From Collinsella aerofaciens (GTDB taxonomy: Bacteria > Actinomycetota > Coriobacteriia > Coriobacteriales > Coriobacteriaceae), in NCBI GenBank assembly GCA_048184855.1, contig DBEYYU010000069.1, positions 4,264-68,263 of the forward strand: a DNA stretch of 64,000 nucleotides, written 5' to 3'. A program made the translations under genes and the position numbers. Every line of letters starts with the position of its first letter. Positions within the stretch are counted from its first letter, which is position 1. The notes below the pieces were generated by a model. The model made no database searches and was not told where the DNA came from. It worked only from the letters and a program-made list of their open reading frames with translations. Positions 2,535-54,271 of the stretch are shown in pieces.

Positions 2535-4016
<1,482 letters not shown>

Positions 4017-4047
4017 GGCGGCTGTCCACAGCTGAATCGTCAAGGGC

Positions 4048-4129
4048 TGTCCCCGAATGCCGGCCCAAAAGGAACGTCCCCAAGTGCCGGCAGCTGGGGA
4101 CGTTCCTTATGTGCCGGCATTCGGGGACA
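4048..4129. repeat. nested palindrome downstream of gltD; a likely terminator and member of the GTCCCC-motif repeat family
   Basis: Perfect 17-nt outer arms: TGTCCCCGAATGCCGGC at 4048-4064 and its reverse complement at 4113-4129. They enclose a 12-bp inner hairpin, GGAACGTCCCCA 4071-4082 / TGGGGACGTTCC 4095-4106. Confidence 0.75.
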
Positions 4130-4431
4130 CTCCTTGCGAGTTCGCAGGCGACTTTGTCATTTGCCGACGTGCAAGTGTTCATTCGTCGACGTTTGCGACT
4201 GTGCTACTCTGCTCTTTCTGTGGTGGTAGCGGGCGTTTGCCTCAAATGAGTGAACTGACTGTCTATATCTACCTGCGGTTTCTTTGCGGTGCGCTCATTC
4301 GGTCAAGTGTCCCGTCAAGTGTTTGGTCAGCATCTGGTTTGCAGCCGGAGGCCTATTTTGCCCGCGCTGGTCGTGGCTGCCCACCCTCCTCGTAAGCTCA
4401 AATTGAGGTTCATCAGTTTGAGGAGGATGCC

Positions 4432-5139: not shown

Positions 5140-5175
5140 GGGATGTGACTGGCGTCGCCCTGCTGCCCTGACTTT

Positions 5176-5312
5176 GTCTCAATCTGTAACGTTTGGCGGC
5201 TGTTTGGGCCCGTAACTGTTACAGATTGAGACGGAAGGTTGGCGGCTGCCGAAAGATCTTGTTCTGTAACAACTAGAGGCTCAAAGACTGTCTTCCTGTT
5301 ACAGATCAAGAC
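5176..5312. repeat. twin-hairpin repeat element, copy A (units 5176-5232 and 5256-5312)
   Basis: Each unit is a 15-nt arm, a 27-nt loop and a 15-nt inverted arm (GTCTCAATCTGTAAC...GTTACAGATTGAGAC; ATCTTGTTCTGTAAC...GTTACAGATCAAGAC). A 23-nt spacer separates the units. The same architecture occurs at 6418, 12055 and 15631. Confidence 0.9.
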
Positions 5313-5338: not shown

Positions 5339-6409
5339 ATGGTCCATTTGTCTGACGTGGTGGTGATGAAAGTGCCTAATACCGTTCTCAAACACAAACA
5401 TGCGACTCGCAACACGTTGGCGCGGAATAGGATGCTCGCGCGGCTCGCGGAGACGGCCAAGCAAGGTGCGCTGCTCGCAACGCATGACAATACCGAGCTC
5501 ATGTGGCTGCGACGCCATGTTGGAACCGACGATATCGCGGAGCCCGAGCCGTACCTGTTCTGTTTTCAGCATGATTGGGATGCATTGACGCCGGCGGAGC
5601 GAGCGCTGAGGACTATCAAAGGGCTTGCGAAATTTCATCCCGATTGGGCGTTTTGGGGATATGACGCCGCGCTGATATGGGGTCTGGAGGTGCCGAATGA
5701 TCTGCTCGGGCCGCGTTTCCTTGTTAAGACTTGCTGTTCGGTGACGTTGAGCGGCGGGTGCAGGTTGTTGCGTCCGCAGATTGCGGGCGCGCTCGAGCGC
5801 GTCGACGGCGTGCGGGTGACGTCGTTTTGGCGCACGGCGGAGGATTGCTTGCTGCGTGCGCCGTTCTCCTACGGGTTGGCGATTGCCGATTCTGCACTGC
5901 GGGTGAAAGACGTATCACGTGGGGATTTGTGCGAGCGCCTCCGCGCCGATTGCGAGGGCAGGCGAGGGTATCGCAGGGCACAGGCGATTGCGTCGTATGC
6001 GGACGGGCTGTCCGAAAACGGCGGCGAGTCTCGGTTCCGAGCGTTCTTTATTGCGTACGGCTTTCCGGTTCCGGAGCTGCAGGTGGAGTTTCGCGACCCG
6101 CTCGATCCGAGCCAGGTGTTTCGCGTCGACTTTTTTTGGCGGCTCGAGGAGGGAACGTGCGTGATTGGCGAGCTGGACGGTAAGGGGAAGTACACCCTGC
6201 AGAGCGGCGAGGCCCGGGAGCCGGTCGACCCATTCGTGGCAGAGCGTCAGCGGGAATCTCATCTGACAATGCTCGGGCACAAGGTGCTTCGGTTTACGTT
6301 TGATGAGCTCAAGAATCCGGGGAAGCTGGTTGAGAAGATGAGGCTGGCGGGTATTCCGCGACGGCCCGATTTGGCTGAGGAGTGGAGACGTCGGTGGTAT
6401 GGGCGCTGA
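5339..6409 (+). CDS. DUF559 / Vsr-like (PD-(D/E)XK fold) endonuclease-domain protein with an N-terminal wHTH-like region
   Basis: The C-terminus (GGESRFRAFFIAYGFPVPELQVEF..FRVDFFW..IGELDGKGKY..LGHKVLRFTFDEL) matches the pattern of actinobacterial DUF559 proteins as I recall it. The track ORF starts at a TTG at 5315, immediately after the hairpin arm. The ATG at 5339, with GGAGG upstream, is more plausible. Confidence 0.7.
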   Translation: MVHLSDVVVMKVPNTVLKHKHATRNTLARNRMLARLAETAKQGALLATHDNTELMWLRRHVGTDDIAEPEPYLFCFQHDWDALTPAERALRTIKGLAKFHPDWAFWGYDAALIWGLEVPNDLLGPRFLVKTCCSVTLSGGCRLLRPQIAGALERVDGVRVTSFWRTAEDCLLRAPFSYGLAIADSALRVKDVSRGDLCERLRADCEGRRGYRRAQAIASYADGLSENGGESRFRAFFIAYGFPVPELQVEFRDPLDPSQVFRVDFFWRLEEGTCVIGELDGKGKYTLQSGEAREPVDPFVAERQRESHLTMLGHKVLRFTFDELKNPGKLVEKMRLAGIPRRPDLAEEWRRRWYGR

Positions 6410-6417
6410 GAGGTTTT

Positions 6418-6555
6418 GTCTTGATCTGTAACGTTTAGAAGTTGTTTGAGTTCGTAATTGTTACAGATCGAGACAAACCGGTGAAACGTCGACCGAATGT
6501 CTCGATCTGTAACATCAAGGGGCCCAACAACCCTGTATCTGTTACAGATCGAGAT
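6418..6555. repeat. twin-hairpin repeat element, copy B (units 6418-6474 and 6499-6555)
   Basis: GTCTTGATCTGTAAC-27 nt-GTTACAGATCGAGAC, a 24-nt spacer, then GTCTCGATCTGTAAC-27 nt-GTTACAGATCGAGAT. It starts 9 nt after the stop of the DUF559 gene. Confidence 0.9.
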
Positions 6556-8639: not shown

Positions 8640-8694
8640 GCAAATTGCCTTTCGTTCGATATGCTGCACGCCTTTATACCCGATTTAGAGCAAG

Positions 8695-8741
8695 GGGGAC
8701 AGGTTAATCTGCACCAATGTGGTGCAAACATACCTGTCCCC
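8695..8741. repeat. inverted repeat with a 27-nt loop (family 2, copy 1), followed by a partial extra arm at 8755-8775
   Basis: GGGGACAGGT-27 nt-ACCTGTCCCC. The loop TAATCTGCACCAATGTGGTGCAAACAT contains its own TGCACCA/TGGTGCA hairpin. A near-identical element lies at 19543-19607. Confidence 0.8.
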
Positions 8742-8785
8742 GGAATACCAAGACGGTGCAAACGTACCTGTCCCCAATGCCCCAA

Positions 8786-9058: not shown

Positions 9059-9100
9059 GTCGGGTCCTCGTTTCTGGTCGATCTTCCGGATGTCCCCGTC

Positions 9101-9167
9101 AGTTGCGGTGAAATACGGACCGTTTAAAGGCCTAGGGCGGCACAACAGTCCGTATTTCACCGCAACT
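9101..9167. repeat. perfect 20-nt inverted repeat with a 27-nt loop (family 3, copy 1), between copZ and csoR
   Basis: AGTTGCGGTGAAATACGGAC at 9101-9120 and its exact reverse complement at 9148-9167. A related copy lies at 50140-50206. Confidence 0.85.
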
Positions 9168-9193
9168 TCTGAGGATTCAGTAGGCAGCGACTG

Positions 9194-9415
9194 CTATGCG
9201 GCGGTCACAGACAGGGCGTGGAATTTCTCGCCCGCGGCCTCGACAGCGGCGGCGAGTTGCTCGGCGGTTACGGTGTCGGCGCACTCAACCTGGACGGTCT
9301 GGGTCTCGTGATCGGCGTCGGCGTCGGTCACGCCGGCAACGTTGAGCAGTGCCGTCTCGACAGTAGCGTCGCAGTGGCCGCACATGAGGCCGGAAGTCTT
9401 GATTGTGTATCGCAT
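9194..9415 (-). CDS. copZ: heavy-metal-associated (HMA) domain copper chaperone
   Basis: A 73-aa protein, MRYTIKTSGLMCGHCDATVE..., with the CxxC metal-binding motif. GGGAGGAA lies upstream. It is adjacent to copA. Confidence 0.85.
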   Translation of the reverse strand: MRYTIKTSGLMCGHCDATVETALLNVAGVTDADADHETQTVQVECADTVTAEQLAAAVEAAGEKFHALSVTAA

Positions 9416-12006: not shown

Positions 12007-12191
12007 GTTACAGATGAGGGTGGTTGGTTGGCCGATGGACCGTCCCAACCAATCATCTCAATCTGTAACATCTGAGGACCGTTTTGCCTGCTAGATGTTA
12101 CAGATTGAGATGTTGTCTCGCGGGGTTGGGGTTTGTCTCGTTCTGTAACATCTAGACCTGTATCTGCCGAGCTGGTGTTACAGATCGAGAC
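12007..12191. repeat. twin-hairpin repeat element, copy C (units 12055-12111 and 12135-12191), plus a solo arm GTTACAGATGAG at 12007-12018
   Basis: ATCTCAATCTGTAAC-27 nt-GTTACAGATTGAGAT, a 23-nt spacer, then GTCTCGTTCTGTAAC-27 nt-GTTACAGATCGAGAC. The extra upstream arm can pair with the first left arm through GGTTGGTTGG/CCAACCAATC. Confidence 0.9.
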
Positions 12192-14317: not shown

Positions 14318-14488
14318 GGCGTTCCTTTGTCTGGCATGGGTTGCCGCGCGTACACGTGAGCAGTGCGGATATCGGTAAAGTACCATGATAGCCGCACTGC
14401 TCACGTGTACCGCTGAGTATTGTCGTTTACGACGCAGAAGGTAGAAGACGAAAGACGGACGGCGACCGTCTTCCGATCGCTGTCCGTG

Positions 14489-15630: not shown

Positions 15631-15768
15631 GTCTTGATCTATAACAATTAGGGCCGATTTTACTCGTTAACTGTTACAGATTGAGACGTTTGTGAGCCGT
15701 GTCGACCGTTTGTCTCGATCTGTAACACGTAGAGGAAGATTCGCCCTGTAGATGTTACAGATTGAGAC
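15631..15768. repeat. twin-hairpin repeat element, copy D (units 15631-15687 and 15712-15768)
   Basis: GTCTTGATCTATAAC-27 nt-GTTACAGATTGAGAC, a 24-nt spacer, then GTCTCGATCTGTAAC-27 nt-GTTACAGATTGAGAC. Confidence 0.9.
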
Positions 15769-19542: not shown

Positions 19543-19607
19543 TGGTGCAATGGGACCAGGTTAATCTGCACCAACCTGGTGCAAACAAACCTGACCCCAT
19601 TGCACCA
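19543..19607. repeat. inverted repeat with a 27-nt loop (family 2, copy 2)
   Basis: TGGTGCAATGGGACCAGGT-27 nt-ACCTGACCCCATTGCACCA. The loop TAATCTGCACCAACCTGGTGCAAACAA is nearly identical to the loop at 8705-8731. It lies 13 nt downstream of the stop at 19530. Confidence 0.8.
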
Positions 19608-50139: not shown

Positions 50140-50206
50140 ACTTGCGGTGGAATAGTTCCTGTATTGCGGCCCAGATGGCCCAAGCGGGAACTATTTCACC
50201 GCAACT
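50140..50206. repeat. 20-nt inverted repeat with a 27-nt loop (family 3, copy 2), between addA and dnaE
   Basis: ACTTGCGGTGGAATAGTTCC-27 nt-GGAACTATTTCACCGCAACT. It shares the outer AGTTGCGGTGAAATA with 9101-9167, while the inner 5 bp differ in a compensated way. Confidence 0.85.
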
Positions 50207-54109: not shown

Positions 54110-54122
54110 GGACGGCGTTGGC

Positions 54123-54251
54123 GGGGTAGCTAATTTGGGACGGGGCTATTTTAGCTACCCTTTGACTGACGGCGAATGAGTCGGGGTCGGAATGCATCTC
54201 AACCGACATATGGGGGTAGCTAAAATAGCCCCGTCCCAAATTAGCTACCCC
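54123..54251. repeat. 38-nt perfect inverted repeat (54123-54160 / 54214-54251) around a 53-nt centre; each arm is itself a hairpin
   Basis: GGGGTAGCTAATTTGGGACGGGGCTATTTTAGCTACCC and its exact reverse complement. The element lies between the dnaE stop (54109) and the SNF2 gene start (54272). Confidence 0.9.
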
Positions 54252-54271
54252 GGGTGAGATTGGAGGAAGTG

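What the first reader, a model, noticed from the sequence alone, without database searches (positions are those of the whole stretch)
5176..5312. The twin-hairpin element has rigid geometry: 15-nt arm, 27-nt loop, 15-nt arm, 23/24-nt spacer, then the same again
There are eight hairpin units at four loci: 5176, 5256, 6418, 6499, 12055, 12135, 15631 and 15712. All have arms of consensus GTCTCGATCTGTAAC / GTTACAGATCGAGAC. By my hand count, every loop is exactly 27 nt, although the loop sequences diverge strongly. Arm changes are compensated. Position 6 is A:T in units A1 and C1 but G:C elsewhere. Position 1 is A:T in C1. Of the remaining stem mismatches, 5 are G-U compatible if the + strand is the folded strand, 2 are A-C and 2 are T-T. 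Conserved pairing with fixed spacing and free loop sequence argues for selection on structure or on a protein that measures arm spacing. It does not look like simple duplication. The arm ends, ...AAC and GTT..., loosely recall integron attC core sites (RYYYAAC / GTTRRRY). However, they face the loop rather than the element ends.
Basis: seen in the sequence. Interest (0 to 1): 0.7.

Follow-up and report, generated by a model that had tools for sequence, protein, structure and literature searches.

The report
Arrayed intergenic palindrome repeats of Collinsella
The "twin hairpin" is one copy of an undescribed repeat family confined to the gut genus Collinsella: about 80-bp palindromic modules, in arrays of 1-8, that hold the same gene-free sites across more than 100 species, with exact spacing and conserved arms that do not co-vary, which suits a protein landing pad on DNA better than a folded RNA.

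Summary
Eight units at four loci have 15-nt arms, 27-nt centres and 23/24-nt linkers, far above chance.

A census of 365 units in 120 Collinsella loci, plus an unbiased scan of 900 kb of C. aerofaciens, shows the geometry is near-invariant: the centre is 27 nt in about 99% of units. Indels per substitution are about 57-fold rarer in centres than in adjacent flanks.

There is no compensatory evolution. The variable arm positions 1, 5 and 6 vary independently of their partners. A·C mismatches are as common as G·U, including on the sense strand.

"Twin" is only the commonest copy number (range 1-8). The "loop" is not free: A16, TAG, a central A/T tract, CTA and T42 are conserved. About 27 orthologous intergenic sites are always occupied. 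I found no new insertions, no target duplications and no partner transposase, integrase or cas gene. Arrays change by whole-unit recombination and bound two single-gene indels.

Best reading (about 0.5): a REP/BIME- or MIRU-like repeat family whose arms are sequence-specific duplex-DNA binding sites for an unidentified protein that needs fixed spacing (42 bp, four helical turns). It is not attC, CRISPR, a known Rfam family or an active MITE. Interest is moderate.

The parts
5176..5232 (.). Unit A1: arm 5176-5190, 27-nt centre 5191-5217, inverted arm 5218-5232
   Evidence: covariance-model hit 5172-5236, 63 bits.
5233..5255 (.). Linker of array A (23 nt)
   Evidence: Linker lengths genus-wide are 23 (128), 24 (84) and 22 (7).
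5256..5312 (.). Unit A2
   Evidence: 58.7 bits.
6418..6474 (.). Unit B1
6475..6498 (.). Linker of array B (24 nt)
6499..6555 (.). Unit B2
   Evidence: 68.2 bits.
12055..12111 (.). Unit C1
12112..12134 (.). Linker of array C (23 nt)
12135..12191 (.). Unit C2
15631..15687 (.). Unit D1
15688..15711 (.). Linker of array D (24 nt)
15712..15768 (.). Unit D2
   Evidence: 70.5 bits.
5339..6409 (+). Single gene bounded by arrays A and B (356 aa, weak DUF559/Vsr-like C-terminus). The gene, with units A2 and B1, is absent in species L038, where one unit joins the A-upstream and B-downstream flanks.
   Evidence: Annotated as hypothetical protein in the orthologous RefSeq region.
12007..12021 (+). Degenerate relic of a reverse arm (GTTACAGATGAGGGT), 48 nt before C1
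   Evidence: (I13).

Best explanation
**What it is (shown).** The element belongs to a Collinsella-specific family of tandemly arrayed intergenic modules.
- Each module is about 80.5 bp.
- Its core is a 57-bp near-palindrome: arm RTCTCRATCTGTAAC, a 27-bp centre with conserved A..TAG......WWW......CTA..T, then the inverted arm. Short A/T tracts flank the core.
- A 23/24-bp linker follows.
- Arrays of 1-8 modules occupy a fixed set of roughly 27 orthologous intergenic sites in the sampled loci. That is 13 arrays and 30 units per 900 kb.
- Copy number differs between species at the same site.

**How arrays change (shown).** Recombination in unit register between the conserved arms gains, loses and reshuffles whole modules. 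Occasionally it removes or adds a gene lying between two arrays.

**What holds them constant (inferred).** Each arm is a sequence-specific recognition site on duplex DNA for an unidentified, genus-conserved protein. The protein would bind as a dimer or higher oligomer and need exact spacing. Arm centres are 42 bp apart, four helical turns, so they lie on the same face. A/T tracts sit at the centre and edges.

On this reading, purifying selection acts on arm sequence and on the lengths of centre and linker. It does not act on base-pairing or on most centre and linker sequence. If transcribed, the units will also fold into hairpins, but the data show no selection for that.
For: **Distribution.**
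- Genome scan: 120 loci, almost all Collinsella. Match spans are nearly always 45 nt and the period is 80/81.
- Census: 365 units in 146 arrays of 1-8. Forward-to-reverse arm distance is 42 in 350 of 352 cases. Reverse-to-forward distance is 38, 39 or 37.
- Unbiased 899,693-bp census: 30 units in 13 arrays, 29 of 30 centres are 27 nt, all intergenic. The covariance model finds the same 38 units and nothing weaker.

**Site stability.**
- Arrays fall into about 22 flank clusters (about 27 sites) shared by many species, with only 3 singletons.
- No empty orthologous site was found.
- Copy number is 1-5 at the window's own four sites.

**Constraint on arm sequence.** For orthologous arrays binned by flank divergence, divergence is:

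| Region | Bin 1 | Bin 2 | Bin 3 |
|---|---|---|---|
| Arms | 0.5% | 3.5% | 5.7% |
| Centres | 4.3% | 11.8% | 18.7% |
| Linkers | 2.9% | 11.8% | 21.0% |
| Flanks | 2.0% | 5.3% | 9.1% |

**Constraint on length.** Length changes per substitution are 0.0022 in centres and 0.045 in linkers (only 23 to 24). Adjacent 60-nt flanks show 0.125 gap openings per substitution.

**No pairing selection.**
- Position 1:57 reads GC 147, GT 85, AC 70, AT 39. Position 6:52 reads GC 105, AT 81, AC 80, GT 77. Mutual information is 0.01 for both.
- Fisher tests are non-significant on all units and on 105 non-redundant clusters.
- Covariation is 0.103 against a shuffled mean of 0.115. Paired cells are 89.0% against 89.8%.
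- On the sense strand, A·C 61 against G·U 36.

**Position 5-6 asymmetry.** CG 333, CA 263, TG 53. This shows base-specific tolerance, as expected of a protein contact.

**Context.** Arrays occur in convergent, tandem and divergent intergenic regions alike: 5, 5 and 3 with RefSeq annotation, and 33, 44 and 31 with crude gene calls.
Against: - No binding protein has been identified. No gene family recurs next to the arrays, and nothing tested here shows binding.
- A 15-bp invariant site is long for a single DNA-binding domain.
- Linker spacing (38/39 bp centre to centre, about 3.7 turns) is not an integral number of helical turns.
- Conservation of both arms automatically preserves a very stable hairpin: -66 kcal/mol for the twin as RNA, z = -6.5. 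With only three informative variable positions, weak selection on pairing cannot be excluded. Position 6 shows a non-significant trend (odds ratio 1.35-1.98).
- The last unit of an array cannot be lost by unit-unit recombination. Permanent site occupancy therefore does not by itself prove function.
- Pairwise divergence and indel counts are phylogenetically non-independent. Units were detected only with centres of 25-29 nt by the arm scan, although the covariance-model search, which allows insertions, found no others.
Confidence: 0.5

Rival explanations
1. RNA (or single-stranded DNA) hairpins that act like REP elements or the conserved-sequence terminator hairpins of mycobacteria. They would serve as bidirectional terminators, RNase barriers or mRNA 3'-end stabilisers between transcription units.
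For: - Each unit is predicted to fold very stably. The twin folds at -65.9 kcal/mol as RNA (z = -6.5) and -33.6 kcal/mol as DNA (z = -5.7).
- In 10 of 13 annotated sites a stop codon lies 9-113 nt from the array.
- Palindromy would let the units work on both strands at convergent gene pairs (5 of 13 sites).
Against: - There is no covariation at the only variable stem positions.
- A·C is as frequent as G·U, and more frequent on the sense strand.
- Exact 27-nt centre and 23/24-nt linker lengths are not needed for a hairpin, yet they are strongly maintained.
- A structural stem would be free to change sequence, but 12 of 15 arm positions are at least 95% invariant across more than 100 species.
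- Three of 13 arrays lie in divergent promoter regions.
- There is no consistent U-tract, and no terminator-like call falls on the units.
- No Rfam family matches.
Confidence: 0.2
2. A non-autonomous mobile element (a MITE or REPIN-like element). The arms would be terminal inverted repeats used by a transposase supplied in trans, and arrays would arise by repeated insertion next to existing copies.
For: - The 15-bp inverted arms with A/T-rich flanks look like terminal inverted repeats.
- The family is multi-copy and strictly intergenic.
- Insertion sequences are abundant in the genome, and one IS200 copy sits at an array site in C. aerofaciens TSDC17.2-1.1.
Against: - Practically all arrays lie at sites shared by many species (about 27 sites; 3 singletons among 146 arrays). 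No empty orthologous site exists, so no recent transposition is visible.
- There is no consistent target-site duplication. Flanking W-tracts occur in all polarity combinations.
- Centres and linkers have diverged up to about 20% at orthologous sites while arms stay intact. This needs selection in place, not recent copying.
- No transposase with matching ends and no single-copy RAYT-like gene flanked by units was seen in 900 kb. The two IS200 tnpA copies encode the same protein (WP_055287554.1) and have their own different hairpins.
Confidence: 0.12
3. No host function. The family would be a selfish or neutral minisatellite whose arms stay uniform because unit-register recombination and gene conversion keep homogenising them (concerted evolution). 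Unit length would be fixed because only whole modules are copied.
For: - Recent duplication of unit plus linker is seen in L014.
- Arrays are mosaics of units shared between species and between neighbouring arrays.
- Copy number varies widely at each site.
- The last unit cannot be removed by this process, which would explain permanent occupancy.
Against: - Conversion would carry centres and linkers along with arms, yet these diverge about 3-4 times faster than arms.
- Arms are the same in all species rather than homogenised to species-specific variants. Positions 1 and 6 stay polymorphic (R) everywhere.
- Single-unit sites keep intact arms (for example L007, L011, L038).
- Indels inside centres are about 57-fold depleted relative to flanks, even between orthologous units.
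Confidence: 0.1
4. Site-specific recombination sites (integron attC-like or res/dif-like) that capture and excise single-gene cassettes.
For: - Two single-gene segments are bounded by arrays on both sides and are present or absent between species. One is the DUF559-like gene between A and B, absent in L038. The other is a 1115-aa CAP-domain gene at site C in L055 and L061, absent in the window.
- Arm ends read ...AAC / GTT....
Against: - CTGTAAC does not fit RYYYAAC, and the motif faces the centre rather than the element ends.
- attC sites conserve structure and extrahelical bases, not sequence. Here it is the reverse.
- No integrase or recombinase gene adjoins the arrays in the annotated orthologous 40 kb.
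- Most arrays sit between ordinary housekeeping genes (dxs, tuf, glgP, gltB).
- The indels are equally explained by homologous or slipped recombination between 15-57-bp repeats.
Confidence: 0.08

Closest known systems
REP / BIME elements of enterobacteria and pseudomonads (bacterial interspersed mosaic elements; REPINs with RAYT transposases). Based on my own knowledge of the family.
   Same: - Both are strictly extragenic.
- Conserved motifs alternate in orientation and are separated by linkers of fixed length.
- Copy number in tandem varies.
- The units are able to form hairpins.
- They act as recombination and insertion-sequence hot spots.
- BIMEs are bound by host proteins (IHF, gyrase, Pol I).
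   Different: - Each arm here is not itself a palindrome.
- Copy number is about 80 units per genome, not hundreds.
- Sites are orthologous across a whole genus, with no sign of spread.
- No RAYT was found.
- There is no GTAG-type head.
- Stem positions show no covariation.
MIRU-VNTR loci of Mycobacterium tuberculosis. Based on my own knowledge.
   Same: - Both occur in an actinobacterial genome.
- There are a few dozen fixed intergenic loci.
- Each locus carries a tandem array of 40-100-bp units.
- Copy number differs between strains or species.
   Different: - MIRUs are direct, non-palindromic repeats.
- They are oriented with the operon and carry small overlapping ORFs.
- The Collinsella units are palindromic and orientation-independent. 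Their 80/81-bp period is not a multiple of three.
Integron attC sites
   Same: - Both are imperfect inverted repeats 57 nt or longer, with ...AAC / GTT... motifs.
- Genes are bounded by the repeats.
- Presence or absence of single genes is associated with them.
   Different: - The core-site consensus and its position are not met.
- Sequence is conserved here, rather than structure.
- There is no integrase and no attI/Pc platform.
- Arrays of several units occur without genes between them.
Iterated protein-binding arrays such as F-plasmid sopC (twelve 43-bp repeats, each with an inverted repeat) or phased operator arrays. Based on my own knowledge.
   Same: - Both are tandem units of exact length.
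- Each unit carries an inverted recognition motif.
- Sequence between motifs is free but its length is fixed. This is the closest analogy for how the element may work.
   Different: - Those arrays are single loci next to the gene for their binding protein.
- Here there are about 35 dispersed chromosomal loci and no adjacent partner gene.
Collinsella-1 RNA motif (RF01700; Weinberg et al. 2010, PMC2864571)
   Same: It is a conserved non-coding motif reported from Collinsella and human-gut metagenomes.
   Different: The Rfam 15 model does not match the units, even at E-values up to 1, and gives no gathering-level hit anywhere in the window.

Membership tests
Integron attC | Outer core sites R'' (RYYYAAC) and R' (GTTRRRY) at the two ends of the element | tested here: not met
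   The 7-mer ending in AAC is CTGTAAC. Position 1 is C, not a purine, and position 3 is G, not a pyrimidine. The motif lies at the inner end of each arm, facing the centre.
Integron attC | Structure, not sequence, is conserved, with extrahelical bases in the folded bottom strand | tested here: not met
   Twelve of 15 arm positions are at least 95% invariant in sequence. The consensus arms are perfectly complementary with no conserved bulge, and there is no covariation.
Integron attC | Adjacent intI integrase and attI/Pc platform | tested here: not met
   The RefSeq annotation of the orthologous 40 kb lists no integron integrase. Pfam scans of the flanking window ORFs find none.
REP/BIME (REPIN-RAYT) | Extragenic repeats in alternating orientation with fixed linkers and variable tandem copy number | tested here: met
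   All 146 + 13 arrays are intergenic. Arms alternate with gaps of 27 and 23/24 nt. Arrays hold 1-8 units.
REP/BIME (REPIN-RAYT) | Each REP is itself an imperfect palindrome with a conserved 5' tetranucleotide (GTAG-like) | tested here: not met
   The arm RTCTCRATCTGTAAC has no internal stem. Only the tetranucleotide palindromes GATC and TCGA occur within it.
REP/BIME (REPIN-RAYT) | A cognate single-copy RAYT (Y1 transposase) gene flanked by the repeats | tested here: inconclusive
   In 900 kb the only Y1 genes are two copies of an IS200/IS605 tnpA encoding the same protein, with their own different hairpins. One lies beside an orphan arm. The rest of the genome was not available.
MITE | Terminal inverted repeats plus target-site duplication | tested here: not met
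   Inverted arms are present, but the flanking triplets show all four polarity combinations: TT 107, TA 76, AA 71, AT 67 at positions -2/60. No direct duplication is seen.
MITE | Insertion polymorphism: occupied and empty orthologous sites, and lineage-specific copies | tested here: not met
   No empty site was found among the loci that span a second site. Only 3 singleton site clusters occur among 146 arrays.
CRISPR array | Direct repeats of 23-55 nt separated by unique spacers, usually next to cas genes | tested here: not met
   The conserved 15-mers alternate in orientation. The "spacers" have conserved positions. No cas gene appears in the annotated region.
MIRU-type VNTR | Fixed intergenic loci with tandem units whose number varies between lineages | tested here: met
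   Copy number is 2-5 at site A, 1-4 at B, 1-5 at C and 1-2 at D among species. There are 13 loci per 900 kb.
MIRU-type VNTR | Direct, oriented repeats with small ORFs overlapping the neighbouring stop and start codons | tested here: not met
   Units are palindromic and centre polarity is mixed within arrays. The 80/81-bp period is not a multiple of three. Arrays also lie between convergent and divergent genes.
Structured RNA (any Rfam family; intrinsic terminator) | Match to a curated covariance model, or covariation supporting the stem; for terminators a G+C-rich stem followed by a U-tract | tested here: not met
   There is no Rfam hit on the units at E-values up to 1, and no gathering-level hit in the window. 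Covariation is at or below the shuffled level. The terminator scan places no site on the units.

The most novel reading that the evidence does not exclude
The arrays are phased landing pads for a still unknown, Collinsella-specific DNA-binding factor. That factor would assemble on about 35 fixed intergenic sites: one dimer per 57-bp core, with units about 80.5 bp apart. This would form a new kind of chromosomal nucleoprotein element, acting as an insulator, roadblock or organiser. The same element would double as the recombination joint at which single-gene cassettes are gained and lost.
Probability: 0.25. Interest if true: 0.7.

Novelty: new variant of a known kind. Interest (0 to 1): 0.45.

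Why it matters
- Collinsella is an abundant human-gut genus that taxonomy splits very finely. A set of about 30 fixed loci with variable unit number is a ready-made VNTR marker system for strain typing. It is also a likely cause of assembly breaks.
- The conservation pattern is invariant non-covarying arms, exact spacing, and near-neutral sequence in between. That is the footprint of an unidentified sequence-specific DNA-binding protein, and it makes that protein directly fishable with a 140-bp bait.
- The arrays also mark places where single genes come and go. This bears on how gene content varies within the genus.
- As a caution, eight copies in one window suggested compensatory evolution. 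A census of several hundred copies shows none.

Tried and rejected
- **Phage or plasmid origin.** The window is chromosomal (gltBD, Cu-ATPase and others), with only weak unrelated phage hits. The period-80 "viral" hits are host DNA beside a prophage whose junction lies about 75 nt from one array.
- **Rfam.** There is nothing on the units, and Collinsella-1 does not match.
- **Literature.** I ran five full-text searches and one supplement search, by organism, repeat terms and the arm sequence itself. They gave nothing relevant. The GATCTGTAAC hit in PMC2724278 is a chance CRP-site listing.
- **RAYT idea.** The IS200/IS605 tnpA next to the orthologous region is an ordinary multi-copy IS200 with its own hairpins. 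It is inserted at a site whose forward arm was already missing in a species without the insertion sequence.
- **Partner-gene search.** All-against-all comparison of ORFs within 1.5 kb of arrays finds no family shared by more than 3 site clusters.
- **DUF559-like gene as cognate enzyme.** There is only one copy in 900 kb. Paralogues elsewhere are not bounded by arrays.
- **Alternative pairing across the linker.** Reverse arm of one unit with forward arm of the next shows no positive covariation. If anything there is a mild anti-correlation at position 6.
- **Pairing inside the centre.** Positions 22-27 with 31-36 show fewer Watson-Crick pairs than expected. The centre has a polarity (AAA or TTT) instead.
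- **Promoter or terminator consensus on the units.** None found.
- **Origin or terminus association.** There is no GC-skew turn in the window or the 900-kb record.
- **Automated count of arrays as synteny break points.** This over-called, and manual checks showed several false positives. Only the two verified cassettes are reported.

Full report
**1. Observation**

The arm consensus GTCTCGATCTGTAAC, allowing up to 3 mismatches, occurs 16 times in the window. Shuffles give 1.1 on average, and none of 100 shuffles reached 16.

The 16 hits form eight forward/reverse pairs at exactly the reported coordinates. Every forward-to-reverse arm distance is 42, so every centre is 27 nt. The unit period is 80 or 81.

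Aligning the four loci shows that unit-1 centres resemble each other and unit-2 centres resemble each other. All four loci have the same orientation on the + strand, although their neighbouring genes run in different directions.

**2. What the window is**

The flanking ORFs encode:
- glutamate synthase large and small subunits
- an amidohydrolase
- a copper P-type ATPase
- a kinase/DUF6273 protein
- an FHA protein
- a DEAD-box helicase

These are chromosomal genes. Phage hits are weak and unrelated. No Rfam family matches the units at E-values up to 1, and nothing in the whole window reaches a gathering score.

**3. Where else it occurs**

I scanned one genome per species with ATCTGTAAC-N(12-42)-GTTACAGAT. 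Almost every locus came from Collinsella.

Match spans were nearly always 45 nt, which means a 27-nt centre even though 12-42 nt was allowed. Matches came in runs with an 80/81 period.

**4. Census of the sampled loci**

An arm-based census over the window and these 920 kb found 765 arms. They form 365 units in 146 arrays.

| Units per array | Arrays |
|---|---|
| 1 | 18 |
| 2 | 64 |
| 3 | 44 |
| 4 | 16 |
| 5 | 3 |
| 8 | 1 |

- Forward-to-reverse distance is 42 in 350 of 352 cases.
- Reverse-to-forward distance is 38 (130 cases), 39 (87) or 37 (7).

"Twin" is thus only the modal copy number.

**5. Unbiased census in a 900-kb record**

PLSDB holds a 899,693-bp C. aerofaciens record labelled "plasmid 6". 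Its gene content is plainly chromosomal. I fetched it whole.

It contains 30 units in 13 arrays plus a few orphan arms. Twenty-nine of 30 centres are 27 nt and one is 26 nt. All arrays are intergenic.

I built a covariance model from 93 non-redundant units and searched the window plus this record. It recovered exactly these 38 units on both strands, at 38-75 bits, and nothing weaker up to E = 1. The family is therefore discrete.

There are no arrays in the first 400 kb. Five arrays and an orphan arm lie within 20 kb, which is the region orthologous to the window.

**6. Anatomy of the unit**

Column statistics give the arm as RTCTCRATCTGTAAC. Positions 1 and 6 are free purines, position 5 is mostly C, and the other positions are at least 95% invariant.

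The "loop" is not free:
- A16, T19-A20-G21, C37-T38-A39 and T42 are conserved.
- Positions 28-30 are an A/T tract, read as AAA or TTT.
- This gives the centre a polarity, and that polarity is mixed within arrays.
- Further A/T triplets flank the arms.

**7. The compensation claim fails**

| Pair | GC | GT | AC | AT |
|---|---|---|---|---|
| 1:57 | 147 | 85 | 70 | 39 |
| 6:52 | 105 | 77 | 80 | 81 |

- For 1:57, Watson-Crick pairs number 186 observed against 187 expected.
- Mutual information is 0.01 for both pairs.
- Position 5:53 shows 3-5 compensated cases against about 6 expected.
- Fisher tests are non-significant for all units and for 105 non-redundant clusters.
- On the 93-unit alignment, 89.0% of cells pair against 89.8% after shuffling partners. 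The covariation score is 0.103 against 0.115, and 492 of 500 shuffles are at least as high.
- In co-directional gene contexts the sense strand carries 61 A·C and 36 G·U mismatches. This is the opposite of what selection on an RNA helix would give.
- Pairing across the linker is not supported either.

The stem exists because both arms are conserved in sequence. It is not maintained as a stem.

**8. What is constrained**

For orthologous arrays with the same layout, binned by flank divergence:

| Region | Bin 1 | Bin 2 | Bin 3 |
|---|---|---|---|
| Flanks | 2.0% | 5.3% | 9.1% |
| Arms | 0.5% | 3.5% | 5.7% |
| Centres | 4.3% | 11.8% | 18.7% |
| Linkers | 2.9% | 11.8% | 21.0% |

- Adjacent 60-nt flanks show 0.125 gap openings per substitution.
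- Centres show 0.0022 length changes per substitution.
- Linkers show 0.045, and only between 23 and 24 nt.

Arm sequence and the two spacings are therefore under purifying selection. Most of the sequence between arms drifts at about the rate expected for unconstrained DNA.

These counts use non-independent species pairs, so they are indicative rather than exact.

**9. Genomic behaviour**

- **Few shared sites.** Flank clustering puts the 146 arrays into about 22 clusters (about 27 sites) shared by many species, with only three singletons.
- **Always occupied.** No locus that spans a site lacks an array.
- **Variable copy number.** At the window's own sites, copy number ranges 2-5 (A), 1-4 (B), 1-5 (C) and 1-2 (D).
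- **Mosaic arrays.** Arrays are mosaics of shared units. Recent duplication of unit plus linker is visible in L014.
- **No target duplications.** None are visible.
- **No partner gene.** No neighbouring gene family recurs.
- **No partner enzyme nearby.** No transposase, integrase or cas gene adjoins the arrays in the annotated region.
- **Context.** With RefSeq annotation, contexts are convergent 5, tandem 5 and divergent 3.

Two single genes are bounded by arrays and differ in presence:
- the 356-aa DUF559-like ORF between A and B, which is absent with units A2 and B1 in L038
- a 1115-aa CAP-domain gene between two arrays at site C in L055 and L061, which is absent in the window

**10. Interpretation**

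*Shown.* This is a genus-specific, position-stable, copy-number-variable family of arrayed intergenic modules. Arm sequence and spacing are conserved. It evolves by unit-register recombination.

*Inferred.* The arms are duplex-DNA recognition sites for an unidentified protein that needs fixed phasing. Arm centres are 42 bp apart, four helical turns. A/T tracts lie at the dyad and the edges. I put this at about 0.5.

*Rivals.*

| Rival | Probability |
|---|---|
| REP-like RNA hairpin or terminator | 0.2 |
| Non-autonomous transposon | 0.12 |
| Functionless minisatellite kept uniform by conversion | 0.1 |
| Site-specific recombination site | 0.08 |

Each rival conflicts with at least one measured feature: lack of covariation and the length constraint; lack of insertion polymorphism; arm-specific conservation; and lack of a recombinase or attC features.

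**11. Comparison with known systems**

The element works most like REP/BIME elements and iterated protein-binding arrays. Its genomic behaviour is like MIRU-VNTR loci. It fails defining tests for attC, CRISPR, MITEs and Rfam families (see the membership table).

Five full-text literature searches and one supplement search found no description of it. Absence from a partial library is not proof of novelty.

**12. Verdict**

This is a real, well-defined and apparently undescribed repeat family: a new variant of a known kind. The "compensated stem" and the attC hint are not supported. Interest is moderate at 0.45. It would rise if a dedicated binding protein is found.

Noticed in passing
window 4041-4136: A 96-nt near-perfect palindrome (48-nt arms, 88% complementary, no gap) lies just after the glutamate synthase small-subunit gene. 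It gives spurious sub-threshold hits to plant microRNA precursor models. Alignments to other Collinsella loci break at 4016-4123, so it is variable between species.
   Followed up: partly
window 8685-8785 and 19543-19607: A second palindromic repeat family (GGGGACAGGTTAATCTGCACCA / TGGTGCAAAC.TACCTGTCCCC) is present at two places in the window. The 14-mer GGTTAATCTGCACC is found only once in the 900-kb C. aerofaciens record.
   Followed up: partly
window 9101-9167, 24462, 50142-50204: A third palindromic family is built on TTGCGGTGAAATA. The core GCGGTGAAATA occurs about 20 times in the 900-kb C. aerofaciens record. Alignments to other species break at window 9080-9195.
   Followed up: partly
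window 54122-54252 and 14350-14410: Two further strong inverted repeats. One has 39-nt perfectly complementary arms 53 nt apart (GGGTAGCTAA core, also repeated in the 900-kb record). The other has 24-nt arms at 96% complementarity, 13 nt apart.
   Followed up: no
window 5339-6409: A 356-aa ORF with no significant Pfam or NCBIfam match. Its C-terminus resembles DUF559/Vsr-like endonucleases (E = 0.028, below threshold). It is bounded by arrays A and B in 12 species and missing in L038. Paralogues at 35-45% identity (L027, L047, L053, L091) lie near the arrays of another site cluster.
   Followed up: partly
L055 380-3727 and L061 5-3340 (site C orthologues): A 1115-aa CAP-domain protein gene sits between two arrays where the window has a single two-unit array. 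The window's array looks like a recombinant of the two flanking arrays.
   Followed up: partly
L241 8806-9264 and 9434 (NZ_OY725717.1 422699-423341): An IS200/IS605 tnpA copy lies beside an orphan arm at an array site upstream of the window's region. The forward arm is also missing in L098, which has no insertion sequence there. A second copy encoding the same TnpA lies at 533435-533893.
   Followed up: partly
PLSDB record NZ_OY725717.1 (L241-L259): The 899,693-bp "plasmid 6" of C. aerofaciens TSDC17.2-1.1 carries ribosomal protein operons, rpoBC, recA, ftsK, dnaE, rho and tuf. It is chromosomal sequence labelled as a plasmid.
   Followed up: yes
L134, L146, L182, L190, L198 (IMG/VR contigs) against L042/L106: Five viral contigs share host DNA up to a point about 75 nt beyond the array of one site cluster (after a terminator-like hairpin, ...tactgccaca), and then continue as prophage. 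A prophage attachment site therefore lies in the same intergenic region as an array.
   Followed up: partly
Viral-contig loci L121-L200 (for example L125, L136, L161, L195): Many low-G+C viral contigs carry ATCTGTAAC...GTTACAGAT hairpins with other spans (33-60 nt). These include a recurrent pair of 34- and 57-nt spans about 140 nt apart. They are unrelated to the Collinsella family by geometry and composition.
   Followed up: no
NZ_OY725717.1 751406, 756415, 761222: Three two-unit arrays lie downstream of three paralogous lactose PTS / 6-phospho-beta-galactosidase gene clusters. Two of them have nearly identical centres. This suggests the arrays were copied along with the gene clusters.
   Followed up: no
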